Origin: a virus
Lineage: Duplodnaviria > Caudoviricetes
IMG/VR virus record: IMGVR_UViG_3300028591_000071
Strand: one strand, 5' to 3'
Length of the DNA stretch: 64,000 nt
Shown here: positions 1 to 18,789 of the stretch, in pieces
Layout: each line of letters starts with the position of its first letter
How positions within the stretch are numbered: the first letter of the stretch is position 1
Made by a program: the position numbers and the translations under genes
The notes under the pieces: generated by a model
The model's input: the letters and a program-made list of their open reading frames with translations, nothing else
Told to the model about the DNA's origin: nothing
Databases searched by the model: none

Positions 1-610
1 TTATCGTATAGTTCGTAACAGGAATGCCATTCGCATTGACCGTATTCTTTACCCCATTTGCCAACACAAGATGCGGTATTCCGTCATTGGAATGATGAAC
101 TGCGAAATCACTTATTCCTCCGCGAACAATCGCCTTCGTCCATCTTCTTTGACGCGGGAATGGCGTTGTAAACCTCTTCATCAACGAATAATCTCCATCC
201 TTAACCCTAACAAACCCGTTGTCTCCATATTCCCTCCACGGAACCCTTATAAGGTCAGCTTCGCTGAAACATCCCATTGAAAGGAAATTCTCAATGTTAT
301 TTTCGAACCGCTCGTTAAGTACAAGGAACTCATCGATGTCAAAGAACGCAATCCAATCATATTCACCACCAAAACAATTATATCCGTGCTGATAAGCCGT
401 ATATTGAGCATCCGCGAAATTATGGAGAGGAAATATTCTTGCAAACCCTTCATCAGCATAATCCCTGATAACATCTATGATTCTTTCACCGCCATAATCA
501 TTATTGTCAAAAATTATGACATTAGTGAATCCGATTGACTTGTACCACTCGGTCCACTCTCTGACATAATTGTTTTCCATCTTCGCAACGGCCAATACTG
601 CGGTTTTCAT
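1..610 (-). CDS. Glycosyltransferase family 92/2-like protein, truncated by the left window edge (absent from the ORF track)
   Basis: Manual translation from the ATG at 610 gives MKTAVLAVAKMENNYVREWTEWYKSIGFTNVIIFDNND...YDWIAFFDIDEFL. This has the GT-A N-terminal strand and a DxD motif. ATGA overlap with the upstream gene's stop. Confidence 0.8.
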   Translation of the reverse strand, partial: MKTAVLAVAKMENNYVREWTEWYKSIGFTNVIIFDNNDYGGERIIDVIRDYADEGFARIFPLHNFADAQYTAYQHGYNCFGGEYDWIAFFDIDEFLVLNERFENNIENFLSMGCFSEADLIRVPWREYGDNGFVRVKDGDYSLMKRFTTPFPRQRRWTKAIVRGGISDFAVHHSNDGIPHLVLANGVKNTVNANGIPVTNYTI

Positions 611-1518
611 AAAACTCCATATTCTTCAAGGACATAGTTAAACACCTGTCTTATTTTTCTGAACGCAAATTCTATTTTCTTCTCAAAATAATGTAGATAT
701 TTTGGAAAATTTGCCTTGATGTCGTCACCTATGTCAGTGTTATACTTCCCATATTCATTTGCAACCGCTTCTATCATCTCCGCATCAAACGACTTTATGT
801 TTTGCAACAACACCGCCTTAGCCCACAAATAGGTCTTATAGACACTCGTTTTTTTCAACGCCGCCAATAAATCTTCTGCAGAAACACGCTCTTTACCACC
901 TATAATCGCATTTATCTCCGGCGGAATTTGTGAAACATACGACTGTATTTCGTGGTAATAGCAAAAATATGACATCAATATAAACTTATATCGGTAATCG
1001 TTGACGATGGATTGGCTGTAAATAATCTTCTCTGAAATTTCGCTGAACCCATCTTCGTCAGTAGGGCCCTGTTCACTTTCTATCTTTGCGTGTGAAAGTT
1101 CGTGCGTTATTGCTGCCTCCACCTGTTCCTTCCATCTGCTTATGTCAATGCTCGATATCTCATCGTACAAAGGGGCTGACACCTCCAACGCAAGAGTGCT
1201 TCCACTAATCTCGCTTGTTGCATTTGCTTTCTGATTCGGCATTGCGTTAACGGATATTGAGAGCCTGTCGAGGCCTTTCAGATTCTTAAACTCCCAATCC
1301 ATCACTTCGCTCTTCGAACCGTTTTTAATCATAGAAATTACTTTTTCTGATATTGCATGTGCGTCATCATATTGCCCGTCATAAACGCAATGTCGCTCGA
1401 AAATAGCATCTTTGTCCTGTATTGAAATATATTCCTCGTCAATATGTGCCATTTCGTTTATTATGGACCTTTGGATTTTCCTGATATCTATCTTGTTTTG
1501 CCTATGAATCATTTCCAA
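607..1518 (-). CDS. Putative zincin-like metalloprotease (HExxH), possible internal virion protein
   Basis: ITHELSHA followed by a distal E (YHEIQSY); N-terminal SIINE motif; paralogue of 31306..32157. Confidence 0.5.
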   Translation of the reverse strand: MEMIHRQNKIDIRKIQRSIINEMAHIDEEYISIQDKDAIFERHCVYDGQYDDAHAISEKVISMIKNGSKSEVMDWEFKNLKGLDRLSISVNAMPNQKANATSEISGSTLALEVSAPLYDEISSIDISRWKEQVEAAITHELSHAKIESEQGPTDEDGFSEISEKIIYSQSIVNDYRYKFILMSYFCYYHEIQSYVSQIPPEINAIIGGKERVSAEDLLAALKKTSVYKTYLWAKAVLLQNIKSFDAEMIEAVANEYGKYNTDIGDDIKANFPKYLHYFEKKIEFAFRKIRQVFNYVLEEYGVL

Positions 1519-2510
1519 TAGCTGTAGATTCCCTTTGTTATCTCATAGTTTTCCCACTTGTACTGAGGTCTCATCGGCTGTGTCTGAGCCCATTTCCACA
1601 TTTTCTTCAGCCCTTCTTCGAGAGAAGTTTTCTGCTCATATCCAAGGAGTTCTATTGACTTATCCGGCTTCGGAACTGCGTGTTTAACCTCATGCCGGGC
1701 TTCCCTATGTTCAACCTTGTCATATCCTGTTATCTTGCACAGTAATTCTGCGGCCTCATTGATTGAATAGCCTCTTACTCCGCCAACATTGATAATTTCC
1801 TTCGATGCCTCAGGGAACACTGCAGCATTCCAAAATGCAGAGAGACAATCTTCAATATAACTAAAAGCCCTTGTCTGCTCTCCATCTCCGTAGATGAGCA
1901 TCGGCTTGTTGTTGAGAATCTGATACATCCAAATGCCAAGCACATTACGGTACTTGTCCCATATATTTTGCTTTTCACCAAAAACATTGTGCGGACGGAT
2001 GATACACCAATCAAGGCCGTGCTGTTCTCCTGCAATCTTGATGTTCATTTCACAAGCATACTTTGAAACAGCATACGGGTCAATCGGCTCAGGCCTGTCA
2101 TTCTCGTCAAACTCCTCGCCACGGCGTTCGCCCCATCCATAAACGGACATTGACGATGTATAAATAAGCCGCTTCACATCGTGGCTGATGCACTCGTTTA
2201 TCACATTATCAGTCGAAAGCATGTTGTTCCTATCGTTGAACATCCTCATAAACGGGGAAAGGCCTTCCGCCGCATACGCAGCGAAGTGATATACATATTC
2301 AAACTCGTGCTTGTCAAATATATCCTTAATTGAATCCGTGCTCAGTTCCCTTCTGTAAAAAACAACGCGTGGGTCAATGTTTTCAACATATCCTCCAAAA
2401 AGGTTATCAATTCCGACAACCTCATACTCTGGATGATTCTCCAAAATCCAATCGGCCATCCTTGAACCGAGAAGGCCAGCATTTCCTGTTATTAAAATAC
2501 TTTTTCTCAT
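1509..2510 (-). CDS. NAD-dependent nucleotide-sugar epimerase/dehydratase (extended SDR)
   Basis: ITGNAGLLG Rossmann motif, HFAA, TSSMSVYG, YAVSK (YxxxK), RPHNVFG, GDGEQTRAFSYI. Confidence 0.92.
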   Translation of the reverse strand: MRKSILITGNAGLLGSRMADWILENHPEYEVVGIDNLFGGYVENIDPRVVFYRRELSTDSIKDIFDKHEFEYVYHFAAYAAEGLSPFMRMFNDRNNMLSTDNVINECISHDVKRLIYTSSMSVYGWGERRGEEFDENDRPEPIDPYAVSKYACEMNIKIAGEQHGLDWCIIRPHNVFGEKQNIWDKYRNVLGIWMYQILNNKPMLIYGDGEQTRAFSYIEDCLSAFWNAAVFPEASKEIINVGGVRGYSINEAAELLCKITGYDKVEHREARHEVKHAVPKPDKSIELLGYEQKTSLEEGLKKMWKWAQTQPMRPQYKWENYEITKGIYSYWK

Positions 2511-3316
2511 TGTATTTGTCTGATTAATTCGTTATATCCTTCCATAAATTTATCATACTCCCCATAGTGCCTAACTACATCATCAAAGTTCCCATCACCA
2601 AAAAACTCAAACTCATCCCATTTTCCTTCAACACAATTATGCCCTCCTGTTTTACACATTACATATCCGCGATTGAATGTCCTCTTGTATATTGATGGTA
2701 GTTCTTCAGCAAATGCTCTATCGTTGAATCGTTTAAGTTCAACCTCGCCGTTTTTTATATCCTTACTTAAGGTCATCGGATTTGTCCAATAAAATGTCCC
2801 TGCAAGTATGCAATTTGTTTCGTCTGTATAAACAAGTGGCAACGAACCCCAAAACACATATGGTCTTCCATGAAATATTGTAAAAAGTTTTATTTCCGCT
2901 TCACGAACAAATTCTAAAGAATAGAAATACAACGCATAAATCCATTTTAAGAAAAATTCCCTGTTGTTTTGGAACATAACAACATCACGAACGCCCTTCG
3001 TGTGCCCAAAAAAGACCATTGTTTCCTCCATCTCGTCTATTTTGTCTATCACATTCTCTTTGAATGTTCTTGCCTCAAAAAACGGGTCGTTTTCAATCTC
3101 CTTAAAGCGTATGTCCTTACACTTAAAAACATTTATAATATTACATTTTACATCGTTAATATATTTTTTTGACATGTCAGTTGACGCTATGAAAAACTCT
3201 GCACTGTCAAACACATTGCAATATTTTGCAAGACACCCATAATGAACCTTAATGGCTATATTTGTCTCATAGTCATCAGGAATAAAAAAATGAAATACCA
3301 AATGTTTTTTTATCAT
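2507..3316 (-). CDS. Unnamed HxKG-family protein, putative glycosyltransferase-like (paralogue 1 of 4)
   Basis: FFGHTKG, WIYALYFY, GTFYWTN and RAFAEELP motifs shared with three other ORFs in the island. Confidence 0.55.
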   Translation of the reverse strand: MIKKHLVFHFFIPDDYETNIAIKVHYGCLAKYCNVFDSAEFFIASTDMSKKYINDVKCNIINVFKCKDIRFKEIENDPFFEARTFKENVIDKIDEMEETMVFFGHTKGVRDVVMFQNNREFFLKWIYALYFYSLEFVREAEIKLFTIFHGRPYVFWGSLPLVYTDETNCILAGTFYWTNPMTLSKDIKNGEVELKRFNDRAFAEELPSIYKRTFNRGYVMCKTGGHNCVEGKWDEFEFFGDGNFDDVVRHYGEYDKFMEGYNELIRQIQ

Positions 3317-3323
3317 AATATAT

Positions 3324-4100
3324 TTACACTCTACCCATTAACTCATTATATCTCTTTGTAAAAAGTTCAAAGTCGCCGAAAAATTTGACGACAATATCGA
3401 AATCAACATTGTAATATCCGCATGGATGTGTCCAAGCGTTATTGTGGCATGCAACCCTGTGAAGTGTTTCTGACTCGGTATAGATAAACGGAAGGTCTTC
3501 AACAAACGACCTGTTCGCCACCTTCGGTATCTTTACAAGGCCCGACTCAATATCATTATATAAAAGAGACGGGTTCAGCCAAAAGAATGTCCCTGGATAA
3601 TTGAATGTAGCCCTTTTGTCATAAGTCGTCCTGAGCGCCCCGTAAAATGTGGCTTGCCATGGGTGTGAATAGAAAAGCATCCTTTCTGCCTCACCAACAA
3701 ACTCAAGGTTGTAAAAATAAAGGGCGTATATCCATTTCTTTATATCCTCATACCTTTCGGGGTGGTCTTTTTTATTCGTAACACCTTTCGTGTGTCCGAA
3801 GAACACCATTCCTTCAAGTTCTCCAAGCCGGTCTATTATATGCTTCTTGAAAGTAACTGATTCGGTTAATATAGTGTTTTCCTCAATTACCATCCGTATA
3901 TCATTATTAAACCCGAGAGAAAGGATGTCGTGTTCCACTTCATTTACAAGCTCATCTGTCTTCTCCTCGAAGCATATCGAAAATATTGCAGAATCAAAGA
4001 TGTGTGCATATTCTTTCAGGAAAACGAGATGCATCCTTATCACCTCGTTCTCCTTGTACTCCTTCGGCACATAAAAATGGAACACCAATGTCTTCTTCAT
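3324..4100 (-). CDS. Unnamed HxKG-family protein (paralogue 2 of 4)
   Basis: FFGHTKG, WIYALYFYN, GTFFWLN, RSFVEDLP. Confidence 0.55.
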   Translation of the reverse strand: MKKTLVFHFYVPKEYKENEVIRMHLVFLKEYAHIFDSAIFSICFEEKTDELVNEVEHDILSLGFNNDIRMVIEENTILTESVTFKKHIIDRLGELEGMVFFGHTKGVTNKKDHPERYEDIKKWIYALYFYNLEFVGEAERMLFYSHPWQATFYGALRTTYDKRATFNYPGTFFWLNPSLLYNDIESGLVKIPKVANRSFVEDLPFIYTESETLHRVACHNNAWTHPCGYYNVDFDIVVKFFGDFELFTKRYNELMGRV

Positions 4101-5419
4101 CGTCCTATGCTATCATATTTGAAGCCGGCCCTTAACATAAGGTCCTTATAGAACGCATTCCTTCCGTCAATGAATACATCACCGCGCATTAACTCTTTAA
4201 CCTTATACATGTCAAGTTTGCATAGTTCATCCCACTCAGTAACAAGGAAAACAACATCCGCTCCTTCAACTGCTTTGTACGGGTCTGTGATATATATGAC
4301 TTCATCACCAAAAATCTTCTTTGCATTATCAATTGCAATCGGGTCATAAACGACAACCTCAACCCCCTCTTCAACGAGGTCCTTTACAAGGTTTATTGAA
4401 GGGGCTTCCCTCATGTCATCTGTTCCTGGCTTGAAAGCAAGACCAAGGACACACGCCCTCTTTGCTGATTCGTCCTTGAAAAACTCAATATATTTCTCAT
4501 AAAGTTTATCCTTCTGTATCTCGTTGACGGCATCAACGGCACCGAGGATAAGCATATTCTGACCGTTTTCCTCAGCCGTTTTCATCAATGCCTTCACATC
4601 CTTAGGGAAACAACTTCCACCATAACCGCATCCAGCCTTAAGGAATTTCGGACCAATCCTGCTGTCAAGGCCTACACATCTCATCACACTTTCTATGTTG
4701 GCCCCTACCGCTTCGCAGAGGTTTGCAATCTCATTGGTGAAACTGATTCTCGTTGCGAGCATCGCATTTGATGCATACTTCACCATTTCTGCCGAACATA
4801 TATCGGTCAGGATTATTTTATCTTCCTTCACGCCCATTACACTCTCATATAACCTACACAATTCTGTTCTCTCAAAAGAATCATTCTTTCCGCCGTCCCT
4901 CAGTCCGAGGACAACCCTATCAGGATGCAGGCAGTCATTAACAGCAACACCCTCCTTGAGAAATTCAGGATTGAAAGCAACACGAATGGCGTGATGCTCG
5001 CCGAGAACACTTTCTATGATACGCCTTACATTGTCGGTTGTACCTACGGGAACGGTTGATTTTACAACAACCACGCACTTGTGGTCATAATGGATATGCT
5101 CGACTATATTCCTCGCCGCACCGTAAACATATTCAAGGTTTGCACTTCCATCTTCCTTCTCAGGAGTTCCGACACATATGAAAATGATAGTGGATGAATC
5201 AACCGAAGAATAGTCGGTTGAGAAATGGAGCCTCTTGTTCTGTATCCCGTACTTTATCATCGGCTCAAGCAGTTCTTCATATATCGGCGATTCGCCCCTT
5301 TTTAGTTTATCAATCTTCTCCTCGTCAATGTCAATGCAGGTCACATCCGCACCTTGGTATGCCATGCATACGCCGTTTACAAGACCGACATAACCCGTTC
5401 CGATTATAGTTACATTCAT
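4097..5419 (-). CDS. ugd: UDP-glucose 6-dehydrogenase
   Basis: IGTGYVG, ICVGTP, KSTVPVGT, NPEFLKEG, GYGGSCFPKD, LAFKPGTDDMREAP, DGRN. Start moved to the ATG at 5419, downstream of the promoter. Confidence 0.95.
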   Translation of the reverse strand: MNVTIIGTGYVGLVNGVCMAYQGADVTCIDIDEEKIDKLKRGESPIYEELLEPMIKYGIQNKRLHFSTDYSSVDSSTIIFICVGTPEKEDGSANLEYVYGAARNIVEHIHYDHKCVVVVKSTVPVGTTDNVRRIIESVLGEHHAIRVAFNPEFLKEGVAVNDCLHPDRVVLGLRDGGKNDSFERTELCRLYESVMGVKEDKIILTDICSAEMVKYASNAMLATRISFTNEIANLCEAVGANIESVMRCVGLDSRIGPKFLKAGCGYGGSCFPKDVKALMKTAEENGQNMLILGAVDAVNEIQKDKLYEKYIEFFKDESAKRACVLGLAFKPGTDDMREAPSINLVKDLVEEGVEVVVYDPIAIDNAKKIFGDEVIYITDPYKAVEGADVVFLVTEWDELCKLDMYKVKELMRGDVFIDGRNAFYKDLMLRAGFKYDSIGR

Positions 5420-5437
5420 AGAAATCTGTTTTCTACA

Positions 5438-5466
5438 AATATAAGTATTTCGTGGACATTTGTCAA
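5438..5466 (-). promoter_or_regulatory. Early-type promoter TTGACA-N17-TATATT(TG)
   Basis: Exact 17-nt spacer; also fits the Bacteroidota TAnnTTTG -7 element. Confidence 0.7.
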
Positions 5467-5468
5467 AC

Positions 5469-5491
5469 AAAAATCCCCGCTATTGCGGGGA
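5469..5491 (-). terminator. Intrinsic terminator after the tail fibre gene
   Basis: TCCCCGC/GCGGGGA stem followed by a U-tract on the minus strand. Confidence 0.7.
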
Positions 5492-8875: not shown

Positions 8876-8883
8876 ATAAATAG
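8876..8883 (-). promoter_or_regulatory. Putative late promoter CTATTTAT upstream of the tail fibre gene
   Basis: Same octamer found upstream of 10 genes in the window, mostly structural. Confidence 0.65.
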
Positions 8884-8965: not shown

Positions 8966-9445
8966 TTACCCCCGCTTCCAAAACTTGTATGTTATGTCTT
9001 CGAACTCCAATTCCAAATCATCCCCATTAACCTTGTGGTGGACCTTGTACATCCTCTGATTCGTTGTTTCCTTGTTGAGAGGACCGAATTCTTCAATATA
9101 TGGGCCCTCCTTAAGATAGGTGAATACCGCCCCGAGTTCCGCTTCAACATCGGGCCTTCCCGAATAAAGTGCTGCCGCCAAACCCCTCTGTGCGACTATC
9201 AGGGCGAGGTCCAAAAGCCCTTCAATATCATTACCCTCACCCATAAAGCAAACACAGGTGATACCTTCATTCTTATCAATAAGGTCATTGAGTACTTCGG
9301 GAGTGAGTTCTTCGCCGACATCTTCCCTAAGCCAAGGGCTGTGACACCCTTCACAATGATTCTGACAATTACTAATGTTGATTGCAAGTGTTATTTCGTC
9401 AGGGATTTCCTCAAATGTAACAGCTGTTTCTAAATATTTTACCAT
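8966..9445 (-). CDS. nrdG: Anaerobic ribonucleotide reductase activating protein (radical SAM)
   Basis: CQNHCEGCHS (CxxxCxxC), CVCFMGEG, GPYIEEFGPLN..TTNQRMY. Confidence 0.92.
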   Translation of the reverse strand: MVKYLETAVTFEEIPDEITLAINISNCQNHCEGCHSPWLREDVGEELTPEVLNDLIDKNEGITCVCFMGEGNDIEGLLDLALIVAQRGLAAALYSGRPDVEAELGAVFTYLKEGPYIEEFGPLNKETTNQRMYKVHHKVNGDDLELEFEDITYKFWKRG

Positions 9446-11192: not shown

Positions 11193-12022
11193 ATTTTCTT
11201 CCTTATCTCATTCAAAAATTCCTTGAACCTATCCGCATCTCCAAGAATTGCCAACACCTCATCCCACTTCTTATCGTCAGCATAGTAAAGATTGAGATTG
11301 GTTGCATCAAGAATCGCGTCATTATGGCTTGTCATACCGCACCCATAAGCATAACGCTCGAACCACATTCCCGGATACTCCTCGGCAAAATACCTACTGT
11401 CAGCTTCCACGTCCTTTACCGTACCAACCATCCTGCAGTTCTTGTATTTCGGCATGTTTATCCAATAGAAAGTGCCGCTATACTCAAGGCCACTGATATT
11501 ATTTGGCATTGCGTGGCACACATTTGTCCTATATTTCGGAAATTGGGTGAGGAATGTGCCGTAGAAGACCTCCGACGCCCTCAGGTTACCGTTAAAATAA
11601 CCTTCCACCTCATTGAGAAATTCAAAATTATAGAAATACATGCCACAGACCCACCTGAAAATGGCCTCTCCGTTAACTTGTGGGTTTTTCATGTTCATCG
11701 TTCCCTTGTTATGGGCGAAAAACACATATCCGTCAAGATTTTCATAACCTTTCAATATCTCCGTCTTGAATGTCTCAACCTCATAGAGTTCAGTGTTCTT
11801 CACTATCCTGATGTTCTTTACCCCATTATGATTTAGGGATAGAATCCACTGCAATCCGTCGGCAATCGTATCCCTGTCGGACAAATCGTCAACGGATATC
11901 GTAAACCTGATTTCATCAAACACCTTTATATACTTGCTAAGGCACATAAAATGAACCTTATTTGCCATATTTTCGGAAAAATCCTTTCCGCAATATAGAT
12001 GGTATACCAATATCTTTTTCAT
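11189..12022 (-). CDS. Unnamed HxKG-family protein (paralogue 3 of 4)
   Basis: FFAHNKG, WVCGMYFYN, GTFYWIN, RYFAEEYP; start at ATG 12022 (MKKILVYH), matching the paralogues. Confidence 0.55.
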   Translation of the reverse strand: MKKILVYHLYCGKDFSENMANKVHFMCLSKYIKVFDEIRFTISVDDLSDRDTIADGLQWILSLNHNGVKNIRIVKNTELYEVETFKTEILKGYENLDGYVFFAHNKGTMNMKNPQVNGEAIFRWVCGMYFYNFEFLNEVEGYFNGNLRASEVFYGTFLTQFPKYRTNVCHAMPNNISGLEYSGTFYWINMPKYKNCRMVGTVKDVEADSRYFAEEYPGMWFERYAYGCGMTSHNDAILDATNLNLYYADDKKWDEVLAILGDADRFKEFLNEIRKKI

Positions 12023-12029
12023 CGTAAAG

Positions 12030-12074
12030 AATATACAAAAATAGATTGAAAATAGCAACCCTATTGGATATATT
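12030..12074. promoter_or_regulatory. Overlapping divergent early-type promoters
   Basis: Minus strand: TTGCTA-N17-TATATT (12058-12030). Plus strand: TTGAAA-N17-TATATT (12046-12074). Confidence 0.65.
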
Positions 12075-12240
12075 AAAATAAAAAATCAGTCAGCAACCCA
12101 CGACTAAAGTTTGTGGGCTTGACAAGGAATGAACCTCGTCGTATGGGAGGCTGACAACTCCCTGCCGTCCAGGAACTTAAGCGTGCCGTCCAACGGCAAC
12201 GCATTCGGGGACGGGTGATTCGCCCTTGTGGCGATGTTGA
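12069..12240 (-). ncRNA. Predicted TnpB omegaRNA/reRNA (scaffold overlapping the tnpB 3' end and right end, plus ~20-nt flanking guide)
   Basis: Inferred from established TnpB biology and the right-end hairpin; the 5' boundary is a guess. Confidence 0.5.
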
Positions 12241-13444
12241 CTGCCGCGTTCCAGTCAGCGTCAAAGACGAGCCCGTCGGCACATACGTAACGGCACCCCT
12301 TGCGGAGCCCGTCCCGGTTGCCGGTCCGGCAGTCCATCTGACTGGTGTACGTTGGCGAAACCGTTTCCACGCGTTTTCCGCGCATCTGTGCCTTGTATGC
12401 CAACATGTCCCGGAATGCTCGCACCGGGACCTGCGAGAACATGTTGTTGTGGCGCTTCCGCTTGAAGCCCTCGTCGGTCTTCGCCGTCTTGGCCTTTATC
12501 TTGGACAGGTCTTCCACGACAAGCACGGAGGCGTCCGTGGAACGAAGCAGGGCGTTCGTCGCCCTGTGGAGCATGTCCATGGATAGGTTCCGTTCGCGCT
12601 TGGAGACTTTGGCGAGATGGCGCCGCGCCGACCTCGAGTTCTTTGATTTCTCCTGGAGTTTCCGCTTTAGGTGACGCACCTTTCTCCGCTCACGGAGGTA
12701 CGTCTTATCCCTGAACGCCTTGCCCTCGCTCGTGACGAAGAGCCTCTTGATGCCGAGGTCAACCCCAACGGCGTTATCGCCGGAAGTGGCGATTGTCGGC
12801 GCCTGGAACGGGATGGATAGGAACATCCTCCCGTCGCGGATGAATATCGTTGGGTCGCACGGCTCGCTGGTGGCGAGAAGTTCCACAACCTTCGGGTAAA
12901 GGACGAACGGGATTTTTACTCGTTTCCTCGCGACCTCGCTGGTGATGACAATCCCGTCGGTGTCAATGCGGGTGTAAAGCCGCTTGTCAAGCCGGAGCGA
13001 AAGCCCGCGCTTCTGCGGGACGTCGGCATTGCGGTGCTTGTTTGACCGGATAGACTTGAACGCCGGGATGACATCCTTGTAGAGGCGGATGACGCCCTGC
13101 GACGGGAGTTCCGGGTACTTTGCCCGGAGCCAGTCATAGACTTTCGAATGGACGGCCTTCATGGACAAGGGAACTTTGTTCTCCGCCAGGAACGTGGCGC
13201 AGTCGTTGTACGCTTGCGCATACAGCCCGAGCAGCCGCTCCCAGTAGGAGAAGGTTGCTTCGGTTGGCTTGAGTTCCACGTTGTAGGTTATCACATTCAT
13301 ATACTTAACATATGTTCTATATATAAATAATATATATTTTGAAAAAAGTTAAGAAATTTGTATATTTTTATTGAAAAATAATTGTTTAACAAAAGGAATT
13401 AACCGCAATTCCTCCCACGGCTGAAACCCGTGGGTTTCCTTGCG
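12089..13444 (-). mobile_element. Non-autonomous IS200/IS605-family element (tnpB only, IS1341-like)
   Basis: Subterminal hairpins CCCACGACTAAAGTTTGTGGG (12097-12117) and CCCACGGCTGAAACCCGTGGG (13414-13434); right end ...GCTGAC; coding region clearly more GC-rich than the flanks; no tnpA. The left boundary is uncertain by a few nt. Confidence 0.85.
12104..13300 (-). CDS. tnpB: RNA-guided endonuclease TnpB
   Basis: RuvC motifs VGVDLG, VVEDL and DADWNAAVNI all keep their acidic residues; YTSQ motif; degenerate zinc finger. Confidence 0.92.
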   Translation of the reverse strand: MNVITYNVELKPTEATFSYWERLLGLYAQAYNDCATFLAENKVPLSMKAVHSKVYDWLRAKYPELPSQGVIRLYKDVIPAFKSIRSNKHRNADVPQKRGLSLRLDKRLYTRIDTDGIVITSEVARKRVKIPFVLYPKVVELLATSEPCDPTIFIRDGRMFLSIPFQAPTIATSGDNAVGVDLGIKRLFVTSEGKAFRDKTYLRERRKVRHLKRKLQEKSKNSRSARRHLAKVSKRERNLSMDMLHRATNALLRSTDASVLVVEDLSKIKAKTAKTDEGFKRKRHNNMFSQVPVRAFRDMLAYKAQMRGKRVETVSPTYTSQMDCRTGNRDGLRKGCRYVCADGLVFDADWNAAVNIATRANHPSPNALPLDGTLKFLDGRELSASHTTRFIPCQAHKL

Positions 13445-13453
13445 GTGATTATC

Positions 13454-14254
13454 ATGAACAACATAGACATATTCATCTTCTCGCAAGGAATTCCCAAGGT
13501 GTACCCGAAATCCGATGAATACAAACTTGTTTCAGTCGGGGAAATCGAGGAGCCTTGTGAAATTCAAAAGATAGATGTAGGAAAATATGACGACCCGCTC
13601 CTTAAAATGGAACACGCATACAGCGAAGGAGCCCGCATCCACGCCTTATGGAAAAACTACCCGTTGAAAAAGTATGTTGGAACCGCACATTACCGGCGTT
13701 ACTTCGACTTCTTTGATAAGGTTCCCGATATGGACACAATATTCTCGACACACGATGCAATATATCAGTCATTCGACATAGGATGGCCATCAATACGGGA
13801 TAACTATGCGGGATGCCATAACATAGACGACCTTAATCTATGTGTTGAAATCATTAAAGAAAAATGGTCGGATTACGCGGGTGCAGCAGACTATGTGATG
13901 GGAAGCAAATATTTCGTTCCGTGCAACATTTTCGTCCTCACAAGGGAGATGTTCTGCAAATGGTGCGAATTCGTATTCGGCGTTTTGGATGAATATAATG
14001 AAAGGATGGGGTTCAAAACCGACCTTGACGTGTGTAATCACGTAGTAAACAATATGGATAGATATGTGGAGGGGAAAGGTGGACCGCCAAACAACAACAC
14101 GTCGTATCAAAGCCGTATACACGCCTTCCTTATGGAGCGAATATCGTCTATCTTCTTCAAACAGAACATAAAGAATCCGTATTACAGCAACATTCTGCTT
14201 ACGGAAACGCATTTTGACTTCGAAAAAACCTATTTTTACCAATATGAGAAATAA
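13454..14254 (+). CDS. DUF4422-like glycosyltransferase-associated protein
   Basis: YVGTAHYRRYF, CNIFVL...FCKWCEFVFGVL and RIHAFLMERI are typical of DUF4422 proteins in polysaccharide loci. Confidence 0.75.
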   Translation: MNNIDIFIFSQGIPKVYPKSDEYKLVSVGEIEEPCEIQKIDVGKYDDPLLKMEHAYSEGARIHALWKNYPLKKYVGTAHYRRYFDFFDKVPDMDTIFSTHDAIYQSFDIGWPSIRDNYAGCHNIDDLNLCVEIIKEKWSDYAGAADYVMGSKYFVPCNIFVLTREMFCKWCEFVFGVLDEYNERMGFKTDLDVCNHVVNNMDRYVEGKGGPPNNNTSYQSRIHAFLMERISSIFFKQNIKNPYYSNILLTETHFDFEKTYFYQYEK

Positions 14255-15479: not shown

Positions 15480-15482
15480 TAA

Positions 15483-17900
15483 ATGAGACCACAAGACATA
15501 AAGATACTCGGAGTAACCGTAACATATAACAATGAGGATAAAATTCCTTACGTAATGCCGTATTATGAGCGAATCGGCATCGATAAACTCGTTGTTTATG
15601 ACAATGGAAGTTCCGACAGGACGGTGGAAATGCTCAGCAAATACCCGTTTGTTGAAATCCGTTCCTATACTACGGAAAGATATGACGAGGGGCTTATCCT
15701 TAAATTCAAAACCGAAATACAAAATGAATTCAAGGGTCAATATCATTGGTGCATATCGACTTATTTCGACGAAGTATTCTACTCCGACCGTGATTTCAGG
15801 GAAGTGCTGTATGAAAAAATGTGTGAGGGTAAGACATACTTCCTTAAAACGGGGTTGAATATCTTCAGCCGAACGTTCCCGCCATCCGACAATGGAAAAC
15901 TCATACATGAAAATGTCGGCAGGGGGTCTTTATGGACTTCTGATGACGGAATAATCGGAGTCTTCGGAAACAAAGTAGAATTGTTCAATATGAACAAAGT
16001 CTACGTAAGATATCATATGGGCGGCTGTCACGAGTGTCAAATATTCGGAGAAGATTCACCTTTCGAGGACGACATCGCCTTTTTCCATCTCAAATTCATC
16101 GACTTTGATTTCATCGTCAAATCCAACGAACTGTACAGGCAGAGAACGGAAGGAACCGATATCCTTTGTTACGATTATTTTGCAAAAAACATGGAAAAAG
16201 TGTATCAGCTGATGGAAAAGAGAGCGATTTCCATAGAAGAATACATGAACACTCCGATGCATTACCTTATGCCACAGCAGGTCGTGTTCCTAATCAATGA
16301 AGCCGACAAGGAGATGCAGAAAAAATATATAGATGCAATCAAAGAGGCGTCGGATAGCGGGCCGGTACAACAATACGGAATATTATTCTATGGCGTCTCG
16401 GATGAAAATTATGACGAGATATGGTATTACGGGAGGCATCTTGGGTTACTGATTATGAACCATAGCCATACCAATAACGGCAGGGATGCTGTCAAGGGCT
16501 TCGGTGGTATGTTTGGAACGACATTAAAGCCGGAACCTTGGATTGCCGAGATTGGTGATGTGCGTATTCTTACCCCGTCATTCTTCAGGCATTTTGAAAA
16601 ACTCCTTATCGAATCTCATAAAAAAGGCATCAGGGACGTATCCACCAACGGTATCAGGTTTATTAAGTATAATAAATTCATTGAAGGCAATCAACCGTCA
16701 ACGCTTGGATGCTATATGATTGTACGTGATGAGGAGCAAACCATTAAAAATTGTCTTGACAGCATCATCAATATCTGTGATGAGATTGTGATTGTCGACA
16801 CCGGATGCGTTGACAAGACGATGGATATAGCAAGGGCTTATGGCGATAAGATAAAGACGTATGAGTTCAAGTGGATTAACGACTTCGCCGCTGCGAGAAA
16901 CTTTGCAATGTCAAAAGTCAGCACCGATTATTCATTTACCACCGATGCCGATGAGATATTCTCGCCAAGACTCAGGGAAACTATTATAAAACTTAAGGAA
17001 CGGAATTTCAATGGGCTTGATTCCGTAGATATCTATCTCCTGAACCATAACGGAACTGACGTGCCGAACTATTATGTCGGCGGAAGGCAAATAGTGAAGA
17101 ATTATCCAAGCAACATTTGGAAATATAAGATTCATGAGAAACTTTATTTCCGCAGAAACACTTTTACGACAATCGATTTGTTCAGCGGATACATACTGCA
17201 TAAGCATAACACAACGAAGTCGTCCACTTCTAACTACAACAAATATGCGGAATGGTATTATAAAGACCTGAATATGGGTGACAGTTATGTCCTTTCCAAA
17301 GAAAACGGGGCACATTACTTCTACTACCTGTTCTATACGCTCAGATGGATGGATGAACTTCGGTCAAGGCAATATCTCAAGGAATTGTACAACAAAGACC
17401 GCATCATATCATATACCGAAGACCAAAGAGCAAACATGTATCCGTCATTTATTAGTTTTGAAGAACTTTTTGTGTTCGAACTGCTGAATAACTCTACGGA
17501 CGCATCTTATATGGCCGCCATGTCTGAACATATAAACGAAAAATTTCCTAAATACCTCCTGTTACACAGAGCATACGAGATAGACAAGAATGTGCTGTCA
17601 CAAACAAATTGGATAAACCTGTCGTTCATCTCATACAACTATGGCCTTATCGATGAATTCATAACCACTACGGAAGAATCACATAAGAGATTTCCAAACA
17701 ATTCAACGATAAAATATAACATGAATTTCATAAATAGCACCGTCAGGCCGATATACAACTCAAATCTTTTGATTTTAACCACCGATGGGTTATATGTGGA
17801 ATCTACCAAAAACTATTATTCGCATATGTTCAAAAAGGCGGAAAATAATTTCTATGGAAATTATGATTATCAGATAGACCTCGGCGATACGGGCAATTAA
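15483..17900 (+). CDS. Multidomain glycosyltransferase: N-terminal GT-A domain, second SunS-like GT2 domain and helical C-terminus
   Basis: N-terminus paralogous to 9478/10320 (VYDNGSSDRTVEMLSKYPFVEIR); second domain MIVRDEE...IVIVDTG...WINDFAAARNFA...DADE...KIHE. Confidence 0.8.
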   Translation: MRPQDIKILGVTVTYNNEDKIPYVMPYYERIGIDKLVVYDNGSSDRTVEMLSKYPFVEIRSYTTERYDEGLILKFKTEIQNEFKGQYHWCISTYFDEVFYSDRDFREVLYEKMCEGKTYFLKTGLNIFSRTFPPSDNGKLIHENVGRGSLWTSDDGIIGVFGNKVELFNMNKVYVRYHMGGCHECQIFGEDSPFEDDIAFFHLKFIDFDFIVKSNELYRQRTEGTDILCYDYFAKNMEKVYQLMEKRAISIEEYMNTPMHYLMPQQVVFLINEADKEMQKKYIDAIKEASDSGPVQQYGILFYGVSDENYDEIWYYGRHLGLLIMNHSHTNNGRDAVKGFGGMFGTTLKPEPWIAEIGDVRILTPSFFRHFEKLLIESHKKGIRDVSTNGIRFIKYNKFIEGNQPSTLGCYMIVRDEEQTIKNCLDSIINICDEIVIVDTGCVDKTMDIARAYGDKIKTYEFKWINDFAAARNFAMSKVSTDYSFTTDADEIFSPRLRETIIKLKERNFNGLDSVDIYLLNHNGTDVPNYYVGGRQIVKNYPSNIWKYKIHEKLYFRRNTFTTIDLFSGYILHKHNTTKSSTSNYNKYAEWYYKDLNMGDSYVLSKENGAHYFYYLFYTLRWMDELRSRQYLKELYNKDRIISYTEDQRANMYPSFISFEELFVFELLNNSTDASYMAAMSEHINEKFPKYLLLHRAYEIDKNVLSQTNWINLSFISYNYGLIDEFITTTEESHKRFPNNSTIKYNMNFINSTVRPIYNSNLLILTTDGLYVESTKNYYSHMFKKAENNFYGNYDYQIDLGDTGN

Positions 17901-17959
17901 CGAGAGAGCAAGCATTCCACGAATATACTGAACTAATGTTTGGAAGGGAATCTAAAATC

Positions 17960-17999
17960 AAAAAAATCGGAGGCTAAAAAGTCTCCGATTTTGTTTTTT
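17960..17999. terminator. Bidirectional terminator between convergent genes
   Basis: AATCGGAG/CTCCGATT stem flanked by A- and T-tracts. Confidence 0.65.
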
Positions 18000-18789
18000 C
18001 ATATTCATTGTCAAACTCTTCCATGCTCATTTCCGAGCGGCTGCACCATTCTTCAAGTAGTTGGTCAAACTGAGAATACGGGTCCCATCCCGTTGTGGCG
18101 GCAACATAACAGGTAGTGGCCACAAGTTCGTAACTTATCGTGTTTCCCGGAAAATTCTCAGAGAAAAACCGCCCAATCATCCTTGGCTTCTCAATATTCC
18201 TCGTCTTCATCACATCCTTCAGCGTCGATACATTGACCCAAAAGATTGAACCGAGATAATAGTACCTGTTAAACGGAAGAACCTCGTTCGGCCTCCCGTC
18301 AGTATACCTGCAGTCAGTCATAGGAAAGCCATAGAAAACCTTCGTGTTCTGAACCAACCAATAATCAATCTCCCATTCTCTTGAAAGAGCGTAATAATAA
18401 TTGGAAAATACCCATCTTGCCGTGTTTTCCGTATTGTTACTCTCCCCGCGAAGATGCGAGAAGAATACCAACTTATCGTTGTTGGATTCATTGTCGAGAA
18501 TTTCCTCCTTGAAGTTCTTCGATTCCCTCAGCGATGTGTTTTTCTCAACCACGAACTCAACATTTTCCGTGTAACCAAGCGACATGATGAAATCTACATA
18601 TTCCGATATCAGTTTTGTATTCCCTATAAGGTCTTCCTTGACGGAAAGGATGAATTTTGCCTCATCAAACACGCTCCTCCACCTTTTAATGCAAGCAAAA
18701 TGTACCTTAGCGACAAGAACCTCGCTGCATCGCTGCTGCGGGGTCCTGTCGTCACCAATATAGATGAAAAATATTAATTTTTTACGCAT
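17974..18789 (-). CDS. Unnamed HxKG-family protein (paralogue 4 of 4), translationally coupled to nrdD
   Basis: FFSHLRG, WVFSNYYY, GSIFWVN, RFFSENFPG; the ATG at 18789 overlaps the nrdD stop. Confidence 0.55.
   Translation of the reverse strand: MRKKLIFFIYIGDDRTPQQRCSEVLVAKVHFACIKRWRSVFDEAKFILSVKEDLIGNTKLISEYVDFIMSLGYTENVEFVVEKNTSLRESKNFKEEILDNESNNDKLVFFSHLRGESNNTENTARWVFSNYYYALSREWEIDYWLVQNTKVFYGFPMTDCRYTDGRPNEVLPFNRYYYLGSIFWVNVSTLKDVMKTRNIEKPRMIGRFFSENFPGNTISYELVATTCYVAATTGWDPYSQFDQLLEEWCSRSEMSMEEFDNEYEKTKSETF

What the first reader, a model, noticed from the sequence alone, without database searches (positions are those of the whole stretch)
1..18789. Self-contained phage glycan-building system wrapped around a collagen tail fibre gene
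Seen: about 19 kb holding ugd, an NDP-sugar epimerase, a GT92-like gene, two tandem GT-A paralogues, a DUF4422 protein, a GT2, a double-GT protein and four HxKG paralogues. They flank a Ser/Thr/Asn-rich collagen tail fibre gene, and rmlD sits separately among the tail genes. Known: Ugd makes UDP-glucuronate; SunS-like GT2s glycosylate proteins; virion glycosylation occurs in giant eukaryotic viruses and some actinophages. Inference: this is a multi-step pathway for a complex glycan, much larger than a typical one- or two-gene DNA glucosylation system. There is no flippase, polymerase or evident membrane GT, which points to a cytoplasmic acceptor (virion protein or DNA) rather than host surface polysaccharide.
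Basis: partly seen in the sequence, partly recalled or inferred. Interest (0 to 1): 0.88.

Follow-up and report, generated by a model that had tools for sequence, protein, structure and literature searches.

The report
Phage sugar-adding gene island around fibre
A giant rumen phage carries a 20-kb-plus block of soluble sugar-handling enzymes (about 15 sugar-transferring modules) wrapped around a tail-fibre gene. It most likely coats the phage's own tail proteins with sugars, but no sugar has been measured, so the target is inferred.

Summary
Window 1-18810 encodes Ugd, a GalE-like SDR epimerase and 11 glycosyltransferase-type domains. The left-edge gene runs out of the window and adds more. 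A collagen/S74 fibre gene lies in the middle, and RmlD sits among the tail genes.

Corrections:
- nrdG, a TnpB insertion and a 303-aa orphan also lie inside the interval.
- The fibre is Ser/Thr-rich (23%) but not Asn-rich.
- The system is not self-contained. It has no sugar-1-P nucleotidyltransferase and no RmlABC in the window.

New here:
- The four "HxKG" paralogues fold as divergent GT-A enzymes without a DxD motif. The family is almost entirely viral, about 868 cluster representatives, and is probably Pfam 38.1 DUF8361.
- HxKG lies beside the SDR in 25 of 28 viral loci.
- The C-terminal half of the 805-aa protein matches only protein or peptide glycosyltransferases in the PDB (GmaR, SunS, ThuS).
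- No island protein has a membrane helix. Four relatives lack priming transferases and Wzx.
- The closest relative's only ThyA homologue is a DHFR-TS fusion.
- Fibre and island are linked in six relatives.

Best reading: cytoplasmic glycosylation of virion proteins (about 0.45). Host-envelope remodelling and DNA glycosylation remain open. Overlapping windows of this scan already reported the sequon and the five-module transferase.

The parts
2..610 (-). N-terminal GT92 / Glyco_tranf_2_4-like module of a multi-module glycosyltransferase that continues beyond the left edge of the window
   Evidence: PF01697 E 1.5e-10 and PF13704 E 8.7e-10. The ORF is open at the window edge. An earlier report, e1-5633869, describes the full 1298-aa five-module protein; I did not re-test that here.
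607..1518 (-). 303-aa protein of unknown function with an HExxH-like motif, probably a passenger gene rather than part of the glycan system
   Evidence: No Pfam or PHROG hit. No homologue in any of the 30 related loci. The nearest ESM Atlas clusters are phage-only and unnamed.
1509..2510 (-). Extended SDR NDP-sugar 4-epimerase-like enzyme (GalE-like). It is the conserved partner of the HxKG genes.
   Evidence: PF01370 E 2.4e-42. Best PDB match is 4zrm, the Thermotoga UDP-hexose 4-epimerase, E 5e-49. The Ser / YxxxK catalytic residues are aligned. Identity is 57-87% in 25 of 28 viral loci that hold an HxKG gene.
2507..3316 (-). HxKG paralogue a (DUF8361-like, GT-A-like fold)
   Evidence: orthogroup a/b, support 95/96.
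3324..4100 (-). HxKG paralogue b; this is the protein that was modelled
   Evidence: AF2 model pLDDT 93.3. GT-A / nucleotide-diphospho-sugar transferase fold: VIA Z 11.4 to the heparosan synthase GlcNAc-T domain; Foldseek TM 0.40-0.46. The profile finds 868 cluster representatives.
4097..5470 (-). UDP-glucose 6-dehydrogenase (Ugd). The true start is probably near 5420, just downstream of a TTGACA-17-TATATT site at 5466-5438.
   Evidence: Three Ugd domains. TIGR03026 scores 442 bits against a cut-off of 189.8. Promoter-like site.
5502..8825 (-). Tail fibre and proposed main glycan acceptor. Ser/Thr/Ala-rich helical repeats, 14-residue repeats, two collagen blocks (GTN/GPQ triplets) and a C-terminal Peptidase_S74 intramolecular chaperone.
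   Evidence: PF01391 E 1.7e-20 and PF13884 E 2e-7. PHROG tail-fibre families. S+T 23%. Sequence. Terminator-like hairpins on both sides: 5494-5471, 8979-8948 and 8919-8900.
8876..8883 (-). CTATTTAT motif 50 nt upstream of the fibre start. It is shared with virion genes and absent before the glycan genes.
   Evidence: 11 matches in the window against 3.7 expected. Ten of the 11 lie 7-51 nt upstream of ORF starts such as the sheath gene and the baseplate-region genes.
8966..9445 (-). NrdG, the anaerobic RNR activase. Not a glycan gene. It is separated from nrdD by the GT block.
   Evidence: TIGR02826 E 1.3e-38. CxxxCxxC motif. nrdD and nrdG are adjacent in relative L002.
9478..10329 (-). GT-A glycosyltransferase 1 (Glyco_tranf_2_4 / GT92-like), DFD motif at residue 96
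   Evidence: PF13704 E 3.3e-14. 40% identical to its neighbour.
10320..11192 (-). GT-A glycosyltransferase 2, a tandem paralogue
   Evidence: PF13704 E 4.8e-9.
11189..12058 (-). HxKG paralogue c. The true start is probably the MKK at residue 13.
   Evidence: orthogroup c, support 97/96.
12104..13300 (-). TnpB (IS605 OrfB / Cas12f-like TNB), a recent insertion between two glycan operons
   Evidence: PF07282 E 2.6e-15 and PF01385 E 8e-11. GC 0.50. Absent at the same junction in the closest relative.
13430..14254 (+). DUF4422 protein. This is the family of the GT111 galactofuranosyltransferase domain of WbbM.
   Evidence: PF14393 E 2e-26. Weak PDB hit to WbbM 6u4b. Family function from PMC12269835.
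14214..15479 (+). 421-aa GT2 with an unassigned 120-residue N-terminal region
   Evidence: PF00535 E 2e-15. Best PDB hits are the wall-teichoic-acid enzymes RmlT (rhamnosyltransferase) and TarS, E 3e-7 to 2e-6.
15483..16280 (+). N-terminal GT-A module of the 805-aa protein, a paralogue of the two tandem GT-A genes
   Evidence: PF13704. 32% identity to 9478-10329.
16680..17900 (+). C-terminal half of the 805-aa protein: a GmaR/SunS/ThuS-type GT2 followed by a helical domain. Candidate priming protein glycosyltransferase.
   Evidence: The PDB sequence search returns only GmaR (E 3.8e-21), SunS and ThuS. Model pLDDT 88.6 with helices at 185-361. The Foldseek top six are SunS/ThuS at E 5e-15 to 5e-14; the next hit is TarS at 7e-8. 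Many bacterial homologues carry TPR domains.
17974..18810 (-). HxKG paralogue d
   Evidence: orthogroup d, support 100/95.
52232..53206 (-). RmlD (dTDP-4-dehydrorhamnose reductase), isolated among the tail genes
   Evidence: TIGR01214 scores 267.8 bits against a cut-off of 224. phrog_540.

Best explanation
The region is a fast-evolving glycosylation island of a rumen jumbo myophage. It makes oligosaccharides in the host cytoplasm and attaches them to the phage's own virion surface proteins, above all the co-located collagen/S74 tail fibre.

Proposed steps:
1. Host UDP-glucose is oxidised by phage Ugd to UDP-glucuronate. The enzyme family is shown by homology; the substrate is inferred.
2. The GalE-like SDR supplies a 4-epimer sugar nucleotide. 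The fold and catalytic residues are shown; the substrate is unknown.
3. RmlD tops up dTDP-rhamnose from host intermediates (inferred).
4. The GmaR/SunS-type GT2 with its helical domain (C-terminal half of the 805-aa protein) recognises folded or nascent virion protein and adds the first sugar to Ser/Thr. This is inferred from the nearest solved relatives, all of which act on proteins or peptides.
5. The remaining soluble GT-A type enzymes extend and branch the glycan. These are two GT2_4 paralogues, the N-terminal module of the 805-aa protein, the GT2, the DUF4422/GT111-like enzyme, the four HxKG/DUF8361 enzymes and the multi-module protein at the left edge (inferred).

The enzymes appear to be transcribed separately from the fibre, which carries the motif shared by virion genes, so they could be in place before fibre protein appears. 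The timing is itself inferred. Rapid turnover of the transferases between relatives would give each phage a different glycan coat, which could serve as protease or antibody shielding, adhesion, or receptor-binding tuning in the rumen.
For: 1. No island protein has a membrane segment.
2. Four relatives have no priming phosphoglycosyl transferase of either superfamily and no Wzx, while the controls ring.
3. The only PDB sequences matching residues 401-560 of the 805-aa protein are GmaR (the flagellin O-GlcNAc transferase, E 3.8e-21), SunS and ThuS (PMC9638930). The 3D model places SunS/ThuS 10^7-fold ahead of every other structure, and the alignment includes the helical domain.
4. A collagen fibre gene lies directly next to HxKG, SDR or other GT genes in six relatives: G001 (loci L001 and L004), L002, L003, L005, L007 and L030.
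5. In G001 nearly all GT2, GT2_4 and HxKG matches fall within 3-27 kb of a 345-kb genome.
6. Positional orthologues of the transferases and the fibre are only 38-56% identical, while NrdD and the SDR are 81-87% identical. That is the pattern expected of exposed, selected surfaces.
7. The fibre has 23% Ser+Thr. S-[AG]-x-T occurs 20 times against 6.9 expected in the window's virion-type ORFs, and about 1 time against 3.5 in the enzymes.
8. The HxKG family is about 90% viral in the ESM Atlas clusters and absent from 50,697 GenBank phage records.
9. Precedents exist. Mycobacteriophage capsid and tail-tube proteins are glycosylated (Freeman 2023, as cited in PMC12619734). Giant-virus fibrils are glycosylated by virus-encoded machinery (PMC10117803, PMC9614988).
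Against: - No glycan has been observed and no virion proteome exists; the phage is uncultured.
- Soluble transferases also build lipid-linked glycans. Large GT clusters in jumbo cyanophages have been read as host LPS or capsule modification (PMC7824862).
- The sequon enrichment in this window is modest and rests on small counts. N-x-S/T and the Bacteroidota D-[ST]-[AILVMT] motif are not enriched in the fibre.
- The SunS equivalog model is far below its cut-off (48.6 against 350 bits).
- The island sits among nucleotide-metabolism genes, which also fits a DNA target.
- The window's own complete genome could not be searched.
Confidence: 0.45

Rival explanations
1. Host-envelope remodelling. The soluble phage transferases act at the inner face of the membrane on the host's own undecaprenyl-linked capsule, LPS or O-glycan intermediates. 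The host's priming enzyme, flippase and ligase are used. This changes the infected cell's surface so that competing phages, or the phage's own progeny, no longer adsorb. The linkage to the fibre gene would then reflect co-evolution of a receptor-binding protein with enzymes that mask that receptor.
For: - GT clusters with epimerases in jumbo cyanophages are interpreted this way (PMC7824862).
- The GT2, DUF4422/GT111 and GT2_4 families are typical of O-antigen and capsule loci. WbbM is one example. WcaA and TuaG are the best NCBIfam names for the 421-aa GT2.
- The glycan operons lack the virion-gene motif, and the ugd operon has a sigma-70-like site, which would fit early expression.
- A bacterial HxKG homologue heads an operon with two GT4 genes.
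Against: - No priming transferase, flippase or membrane protein is present in the island or in four relatives.
- One enzyme belongs to the protein/peptide-glycosylating GmaR/SunS/ThuS group.
- The HxKG family is almost confined to viruses, which is unexpected for enzymes working on common bacterial intermediates.
- The phage shows no sign of lysogeny in this window.
Confidence: 0.25
2. Not one pathway but a hotspot. The interval is a recombination-prone region next to the nrd genes, where independent short glycosylation modules accumulate. These include the SDR+HxKG pairs, the DUF4422-GT2-SunS-like operon and the multi-module protein. They would serve different targets (several virion proteins, possibly host molecules) rather than one long assembly line for one complex glycan.
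For: - Gene content and order differ in every relative. HxKG copies number 2 to at least 6. Ugd is present only here. nrdD and nrdG are split here and in G001 but adjacent in L002. One operon is inverted. A TnpB and an orphan gene are inserted.
- The SDR+HxKG pair occurs alone in unrelated, cyanophage-like contigs.
- Three HxKG orthogroups are retained separately.
Against: The modules stay together and stay with the fibre in all six relatives. This reading is compatible with the best explanation as far as the target class goes.
Confidence: 0.15
3. DNA hypermodification. The enzymes decorate a hydroxylated base in phage DNA with a multi-sugar glycan to block host nucleases. Known cases are glucosyl-5hmC, arabinosyl-5hoC and the diverse DNA glycans of metavirome phages.
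For: - The island is embedded among nucleotide-metabolism and replication genes: nrdD, nrdG, DnaB, an exonuclease, tdk and a recombinase.
- GT-A-fold phage enzymes, sometimes beside an epimerase, do glycosylate DNA (bioRxiv 10.1101/2023.12.21.572611). Poly-arabinosylated DNA exists (PMC13326640).
- The jumbo Bacillus phage SP-15 encodes a Ugd. From my own knowledge, its DNA carries a glucuronate-containing hypermodified base.
Against: - The only ThyA-family gene in the 93%-complete relative is a 499-aa DHFR-TS fusion. Its best matches are true DHFR-TS and thymidylate synthases, not hydroxymethylases. The other three relatives have none.
- No hydroxymethylase, dCTPase or TET-like gene was seen among the window ORFs scanned.
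- Known poly-sugar DNA transferases are mostly GT-B.
- The GmaR/SunS-type enzyme and the fibre linkage are not explained.
- The Tet_JBP search was uninformative because its control was silent.
Confidence: 0.08
4. A glycosylated small product. The SunS-like enzyme and its partners make a glycopeptide (glycocin-like) or another soluble glycoconjugate that acts on competitors or on the host.
For: SunS and ThuS, the closest structures, glycosylate bacteriocin peptides, and SunS is itself prophage-encoded.
Against: No precursor peptide, thiol-disulfide oxidoreductase or exporter gene is present in the island. Fifteen transferase modules are far more than a glycocin needs.
Confidence: 0.04

Closest known systems
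Virion O-glycosylation of mycobacteriophages by phage-encoded glycosyltransferases (Freeman et al. 2023, as cited in PMC12619734)
   Same: Soluble phage glycosyltransferases are encoded next to virion genes and act in the cytoplasm on structural proteins.
   Different: The mycobacteriophage systems have one to a few GT genes and no sugar-nucleotide enzymes, and the glycans are shown on capsid and tail-tube C-termini. Here there are about 15 GT-type modules plus Ugd, an SDR and RmlD, the host is a Gram-negative rumen bacterium, the suspected target is a fibre, and nothing has been measured.
Autonomous glycosylation machinery of giant viruses: chlorovirus PBCV-1 multi-domain GTs and Megavirinae fibril glycosylation clusters (PMC10117803, PMC9614988, PMC4691112)
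   Same: Both have clusters of soluble, often multi-domain GT-A enzymes with virus-encoded sugar-nucleotide synthesis. Content is clade-specific. Both decorate external fibrils or capsid.
   Different: The giant viruses are eukaryotic. There is no sequence relationship beyond the shared fold. This island belongs to a tailed bacteriophage.
GmaR (Listeria flagellin O-GlcNAc transferase) and SunS/ThuS glycocin S-glycosyltransferases
   Same: These are the only PDB sequence matches to residues 401-560 of the 805-aa protein, and the best structural matches to its C-terminal half including the helical domain. All are cytoplasmic GT2 enzymes acting on a protein or peptide.
   Different: The TIGR04195 score is far below its cut-off. 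The phage module is fused behind another GT-A module. Its helical domain gives no TPR Pfam hit. The acceptor is unknown.
'LPS / capsular polysaccharide modification' gene clusters of jumbo cyanophages such as P-SSM2 (PMC7824862)
   Same: Both are clusters of more than 10 genes with SDR epimerases and several paralogous GT families, polymorphic between related phages.
   Different: The cyanophage clusters include sugar kinases and nucleotidyltransferases and are not described as built around a fibre gene. Their function is also only inferred.
Phage DNA glycan hypermodification systems (Pyle et al. preprint 10.1101/2023.12.21.572611; Lee et al. PMC13326640)
   Same: They use phage GT-A or GT-B enzymes, sometimes with an epimerase and a sugar-nucleotide pathway, located near nucleotide-metabolism genes.
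   Different: Those systems are anchored by a ThyA-like hydroxylase or hydroxymethylase, or by a 5mYOX dioxygenase. None was found here, and the relative's ThyA is a DHFR-TS fusion.
WbbM N-terminal DUF4422 domain (GT111 galactofuranosyltransferase)
   Same: The 274-aa protein at 13430-14254 matches PF14393 at E 2e-26.
   Different: Only one member of the family is characterised. No UDP-galactopyranose mutase was looked for or seen.

Membership tests
UDP-glucose/GDP-mannose dehydrogenase family (Ugd) | N-terminal NAD-binding, central and C-terminal UDP-binding domains, each above the Pfam cut-off; NDP-sugar dehydrogenase subfamily model | tested here: met
   PF03721 208.5, PF00984 129.1 and PF03720 107.7 bits. 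TIGR03026 scores 442 against 189.8. The equivalog models TuaD and AglM are below their cut-offs, so UDP-glucose as substrate is the likely but unproven assignment.
Extended SDR NDP-sugar 4-epimerase (GalE-like) | Rossmann GxxGxxG, catalytic Ser/Thr and YxxxK | tested here: met
   TGNAGLLGS, SS(M)S and YAVSK align with 4zrm, E 5e-49.
Extended SDR NDP-sugar 4-epimerase (GalE-like) | Equivalog-level match to GalE (TIGR01179) | tested here: not met
   104 bits against a cut-off of 262. The substrate could be UDP-hexose, UDP-HexNAc, UDP-GlcA or UDP-pentose.
RmlD (dTDP-4-dehydrorhamnose reductase) | TIGR01214 above the curated cut-off | tested here: met
   267.8 against 224 bits.
GmaR/SunS/ThuS-type protein or peptide GT2 | GT2 catalytic domain closest to these enzymes rather than to polysaccharide GT2s | tested here: met
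   Only 4 PDB sequences match at E <= 1e-3: GmaR at 3.8e-21, SunS twice, and ThuS.
GmaR/SunS/ThuS-type protein or peptide GT2 | Helical (TPR-like) acceptor-binding domain after the GT2 domain | tested here: met
   The model has helices spanning residues 185-361 of the half-protein. The SunS/ThuS alignments span 351-390 columns at E 5e-15 to 5e-14, against 7e-8 for the next fold. Many bacterial homologues carry TPR Pfam domains.
GmaR/SunS/ThuS-type protein or peptide GT2 | SunS equivalog model TIGR04195 above its cut-off | tested here: not met
   48.6 against 350 bits. This is not a SunS orthologue.
GmaR/SunS/ThuS-type protein or peptide GT2 | Transfers sugar to a protein or peptide acceptor | not testable with these tools
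   Needs an enzyme assay.
GT-A fold glycosyltransferases (for the HxKG / DUF8361-like paralogues) | Nucleotide-diphospho-sugar transferase (GT-A) fold | tested here: met
   Model pLDDT 93.3. VIA Z 11.4 to the heparosan synthase GlcNAc-T domain, and 9.5 to KfiA and to hyaluronan and chondroitin synthases. Foldseek probability 1.0, TM 0.40-0.46. Sugar-1-P nucleotidyltransferases score almost as well (Z 9.3-9.7).
GT-A fold glycosyltransferases (for the HxKG / DUF8361-like paralogues) | DxD metal and diphosphate-binding motif after strand 4 | tested here: not met
   The invariant H-x-K-G follows strand 98-103 instead. No conserved DxD is present.
GT-A fold glycosyltransferases (for the HxKG / DUF8361-like paralogues) | Sequence-profile relationship to GT2 | tested here: not met
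   hhalign probability is 0.14 against the SunS-like GT2 profile. No Pfam-A hit in the local copy.
DUF4422 / GT111 | PF14393 above its cut-off | tested here: met
   93.7 against 25 bits.
Und-P-dependent surface polysaccharide assembly (Wzx/Wzy type) | Priming phosphoglycosyl transferase (PF02397 or PF00953), flippase (PF01943), membrane-embedded components | tested here: not met
   None in four relatives, with controls ringing. No hydrophobic segment in the island proteins. The window's own full genome is not held.
Phage DNA glycosylation systems | ThyA-like dCMP/dUMP hydroxymethylase or 5hoC synthase | tested here: not met
   In the relatives only. G001 has one ThyA-family gene, a DHFR-TS fusion that best matches true TS. 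G002-G004 have none. The own genome is not testable.
Phage DNA glycosylation systems | TET/JBP-type 5-methylpyrimidine dioxygenase | tested here: inconclusive
   No match, but the control genomes were also silent.
Phage virion glycosylation (mycobacteriophage type) | Glycan covalently attached to virion proteins | not testable with these tools
   Needs glycoproteomics of virions or co-expression experiments.

The most novel reading that the evidence does not exclude
The HxKG/DUF8361 proteins are a new, virus-specific, DxD-less (probably metal-independent) glycosyltransferase family. Together with a dedicated GalE-like epimerase they form a portable two-gene module found in unrelated phage lineages. 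In rumen jumbo phages this module has expanded to 4-6 specialised paralogues. With a GmaR/SunS-type priming enzyme, these paralogues build a strain-specific glycan coat on tail fibres. That would be a bacteriophage counterpart of giant-virus fibril glycosylation, and it would tune host range or survival in the gut.
Probability: 0.3. Interest if true: 0.8.

Novelty: new variant of a known kind. Interest (0 to 1): 0.62.

Why it matters
Measured glycosylation of tailed-phage particles is, as far as I know, limited to a few actinophages with one to a few transferases.

A phage with about 15 transferase modules, its own sugar-nucleotide enzymes and a protein-directed priming enzyme next to a fibre gene would show that bacteriophages can run glycosylation programmes as elaborate as those of giant viruses.

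Such a glycan coat could affect host range, resistance to rumen proteases and immune recognition of gut phages.

The work also defines an abundant, almost purely viral enzyme family (HxKG/DUF8361, about 868 cluster representatives) with a GT-A-like fold and no DxD motif. This family and its conserved epimerase partner are directly testable in vitro, even though the phage is uncultured.

Tried and rejected
- **DNA similarity.** A megablast of the 19 kb against 50,697 GenBank phage records found nothing. tblastn with two HxKG proteins also found nothing there. The nearest isolate by tail sheath is Microcystis phage Mel-JY01, at only 28% identity.
- **Own genome.** It is not held, so genome-wide absences were tested only in relatives G001-G004.
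- **HxKG as a sulfotransferase or fucosyltransferase.** I considered both because of the basic H-x-K-G motif. I rejected them because the fold is GT-A and the motif follows strand 4.
- **HxKG as a sugar-1-P nucleotidyltransferase.** This is not excluded. Z scores are 9.3-9.7 against 11.4 for the best GT. I consider it less likely because there is no N-terminal Gly-rich loop, the paralogues diverge rapidly, and the family is fused or in an operon with GT4 and methyltransferase genes.
- **Profile comparison of HxKG with GT2.** No signal.
- **Sequons in the fibre.** The Bacteroidota O-glycosylation motif and N-x-S/T are not enriched.
- **Tet_JBP search.** Uninformative, because the control was silent.
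- **Bacterial genome scan.** It used a single strict peptide pattern and returned only two loci. Rarity in bacteria therefore rests mainly on the ESM Atlas taxon shares.
- **303-aa HExxH-like ORF.** No family was found.

Full report
**What the window is.** It belongs to a large myophage. It encodes a tail sheath, baseplate hub, endolysin, DnaB-like helicase, UvsX-like recombinase, thymidine kinase and NrdD. No GenBank phage is similar at the DNA level. The best sheath match is Microcystis phage Mel-JY01 at 28% identity. Earlier reports of this scan describe it as a sheep-rumen jumbo phage. No whole genome is held for it. Its closest relatives are IMG/VR contigs of 345 kb (G001, 93% complete) and 303 kb (G002).

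**The observation.** From left to right:
- 2-610(-): the N-terminal GT92/GT2_4-like module of a gene that runs off the window.
- 607-1518(-): a 303-aa orphan.
- 1509-2510(-): an extended SDR epimerase.
- 2507-3316 and 3324-4100(-): HxKG paralogues a and b.
- 4097-5470(-): Ugd.
- 5502-8825(-): a 1107-aa fibre with collagen repeats and a C-terminal Peptidase_S74 chaperone.
- 8966-9445(-): NrdG.
- 9478-10329 and 10320-11192(-): two GT-A paralogues, 40% identical.
- 11189-12058(-): HxKG c.
- 12104-13300(-): TnpB.
- 13430-14254(+): DUF4422.
- 14214-15479(+): a 421-aa GT2.
- 15483-17900(+): an 805-aa protein with two GT domains.
- 17974-18810(-): HxKG d.
- 18782 onward: NrdD.

RmlD is at 52232-53206, above its curated cut-off. 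That makes 11 glycosyltransferase-type domains inside the interval. The earlier report on the left-edge protein adds four more; I did not re-test that.

- NrdG, TnpB and the orphan are not glycan genes.
- The fibre is Ser/Thr-rich (23%) but has ordinary Asn content (7.0%).
- The island runs past the window edge.

**The HxKG family.** The local Pfam-A copy, PHROGs and NCBIfam give no hit.
- *Size and distribution.* A profile of 20 members finds 868 representatives at E <= 1e-3 in 1.84 billion cluster representatives, 222 of them at E <= 1e-30. The nearest ESM Atlas clusters are 88-93% viral, and 10-30% of their members carry Pfam 38.1 DUF8361. GenBank phages have none.
- *Fold.* The AF2 model (pLDDT 93.3) has the GT-A / nucleotide-diphospho-sugar transferase fold. 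The best VIA Z is 11.4, to the GlcNAc-transferase domain of heparosan synthase. KfiA, chondroitin synthase and hyaluronan synthase score 9.5-9.7. Sugar-1-phosphate nucleotidyltransferases score 9.3-9.7. Foldseek gives TM 0.40-0.46.
- *Motif.* The invariant H-x-K-G sits immediately after strand 4, where GT-A enzymes carry DxD. No conserved DxD exists. There is no profile-level similarity to GT2.
- *Context.* Fusions occur with a GT4 domain and with Methyltransf_24. In an Omnitrophica genome a homologue heads an operon with two GT4 genes.

I read the family as a divergent, possibly metal-independent glycosyltransferase. A nucleotidyltransferase role is not excluded.

**A conserved HxKG-SDR pair.** In 25 of 28 viral loci recovered with the HxKG profile, a homologue of the window's SDR (57-87% identity) lies within about 2 kb. 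This includes contigs of a different, cyanophage-like kind that also encode UvdE, NifU, carbamoyltransferase and a methyltransferase. The SDR keeps its Rossmann motif, Ser and YxxxK. It is closest to the Thermotoga UDP-hexose 4-epimerase (E 5e-49), ahead of the UDP-GlcA 4-epimerase and UDP-xylose synthase. The pair is therefore a unit, and the HxKG enzymes probably use the epimerase's product.

**The protein-directed transferase.** Residues 401-560 of the 805-aa protein match only four PDB sequences at E <= 1e-3: GmaR (3.8e-21), SunS twice, and ThuS.
- GmaR's N-terminal domain transfers GlcNAc to flagellin and is followed by a TPR domain that the authors suggest may recognise flagellin (PMC9638930).
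- A model of the C-terminal half (pLDDT 88.6) shows a GT-A domain followed by helices 185-361.
- The top six Foldseek hits are SunS/ThuS (E 5e-15 to 5e-14, 351-390 aligned columns). The next hit is TarS at 7e-8.
- Many bacterial homologues carry TPR domains.
- The SunS equivalog model is far below its cut-off, so this is a relative of the group, not a SunS orthologue.

**What is missing.**
- No island protein has a membrane-like segment.
- In G001-G004 there is no Bac_transf, no WecA/MraY-type transferase and no Wzx, with controls positive.
- For the DNA rival: only G001 has a ThyA-family gene. It is a 499-aa DHFR-TS fusion whose best PDB matches are DHFR-TS and thymidylate synthases. A fused DHFR makes sense for a true thymidylate synthase, which produces dihydrofolate. 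A hydroxymethylase does not produce it; this point is my own knowledge.
- The Tet_JBP search was uninformative.
- The system is not self-sufficient. The window has no nucleotidyltransferase and no RmlA/B/C. G001 has RmlC, and G003 and G004 have an RmlA-like gene.

**Conservation and dynamics.**
- A collagen fibre gene directly adjoins HxKG, SDR or other GT genes in G001 (L001/L004), L002, L003, L005, L007 and L030. L030 is a yak-rumen contig binned as a Paludibacteraceae MAG, with six HxKG genes.
- In G001 nearly all GT2, GT2_4 and HxKG matches lie between 3 and 27 kb of 345 kb.
- NrdD and the SDR are 81-87% identical to G001. The positional orthologues of the transferases and the fibre are only 38-56% identical.
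- A tree of 27 HxKG proteins resolves three supported orthogroups shared with relatives: a/b next to the SDR (95/96), c (97/96) and d (100/95). Terminal branches are long. The paralogues are therefore old and specialised.
- Rearrangements are frequent. nrdD and nrdG are split by 9 kb here and in G001 but adjacent in L002. TnpB and the orphan are absent from relatives.

**Expression signals.** CTATTTAT occurs 11 times against 3.7 expected. Ten copies lie 7-51 nt before ORF starts, almost all of virion-type genes including the fibre (8876-8883). None precedes a glycan gene. Hairpin-plus-T terminator-like sites flank the fibre, and a TTGACA-17-TATATT site opens the ugd operon. That consensus scan is only weakly above background (61 sites found against 45.9 expected). 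The fibre appears to be regulated with virion genes and the enzymes separately.

**Acceptor clues.** S-[AG]-x-T is the motif proposed by an earlier report on an overlapping window. It occurs 20 times against 6.9 expected by within-protein shuffling in the window's virion-type ORFs (7 against 3.2 in the fibre). It occurs about once against 3.5 in the enzymes. This agrees in direction with the earlier report but is weaker. N-x-S/T and the Bacteroidota D-[ST]-[AILVMT] motif are not enriched in the fibre.

**Interpretation.** The most economical reading is cytoplasmic glycosylation of virion proteins. It would be primed by the GmaR/SunS-type enzyme and extended by the GT-A enzymes, with Ugd, the SDR and RmlD adjusting host sugar-nucleotide pools. 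I give it a confidence of about 0.45. Three rivals remain. The first is remodelling of host lipid-linked glycans, as proposed for cyanophage clusters (PMC7824862). The second is a hotspot of independent modules rather than one pathway. The third is DNA glycosylation (preprint 10.1101/2023.12.21.572611; PMC13326640; a Ugd in phage SP-15). No paper describing this island or the HxKG family turned up in the searches I ran.

**Verdict.** This is a real and unusually large phage glycosylation island. It is a new variant of a known kind of system, and it contains an undescribed virus-specific GT-A-like family and a protein-directed transferase. Its target is not demonstrated. Overlapping windows of this scan have already reported parts of it (the sequon and the five-module protein).

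Noticed in passing
window 12104-13300 (element roughly 12089-13444): A TnpB (IS605 OrfB / Cas12f-like) gene with GC about 50% is inserted between HxKG c and the DUF4422 operon. In the closest relative the two flanking genes are back to back with no TnpB, so the insertion is recent.
   Followed up: partly
window 8966-9445 and 18782-20959; L002:118-1578: nrdG and nrdD are separated by about 9 kb of glycosyltransferase genes here and in G001. They are adjacent in relative L002. The GT block has moved or been inserted between the two halves of the anaerobic RNR pair.
   Followed up: partly
window 8876, 28583, 30015, 35195, 48470, 51231, 51655, 54286, 57210, 59757: CTATTTAT lies 7-51 nt upstream of ten ORF starts, mostly virion genes (11 matches against 3.7 expected). 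It is a candidate late-gene signal of this phage clade.
   Followed up: partly
L030 (JAGCWQ010000115.1, yak rumen MAG labelled Paludibacteraceae): This 29.7-kb contig, binned into a bacterial MAG, is a fragment of a related phage: fibre end, six HxKG genes and an SDR at 87% identity. It is either a binning error or a hint that the host is a Paludibacteraceae/Bacteroidales bacterium.
   Followed up: partly
L029:994-2493 (G001:C1:77953-79452): The closest relative encodes a 499-aa bifunctional DHFR-thymidylate synthase fusion. Its best PDB matches are protozoan and plant DHFR-TS enzymes. This is an unusual architecture for a phage.
   Followed up: partly
L020:8385-10690 and similar loci L016-L028: In cyanophage-like contigs (UvdE, NifU, carbamoyltransferase nearby) the SDR and the HxKG gene are separated by a Methyltransf_24 gene. 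One database protein (P0128) fuses Methyltransf_24 to HxKG. This suggests methylated sugars in that lineage.
   Followed up: no
window 607-1518 and 31306-32157: The 303-aa HExxH-like ORF inside the glycan operon has no homologue in 30 related loci and belongs to unnamed phage-only clusters. A first-reader note calls 31306-32157 a distant paralogue. I did not test that.
   Followed up: no
window 53283-53909: A 208-aa ORF next to RmlD, between the tail genes, has a weak papain-family (Peptidase_C1) match at E 6e-6.
   Followed up: no
L001:8123-9904: In G001 a second Ser/Thr-rich (19%) 593-aa ORF lies between the collagen fibre and the HxKG/SDR genes, where this window has Ugd. It may be a second fibre component or acceptor.
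   Followed up: no
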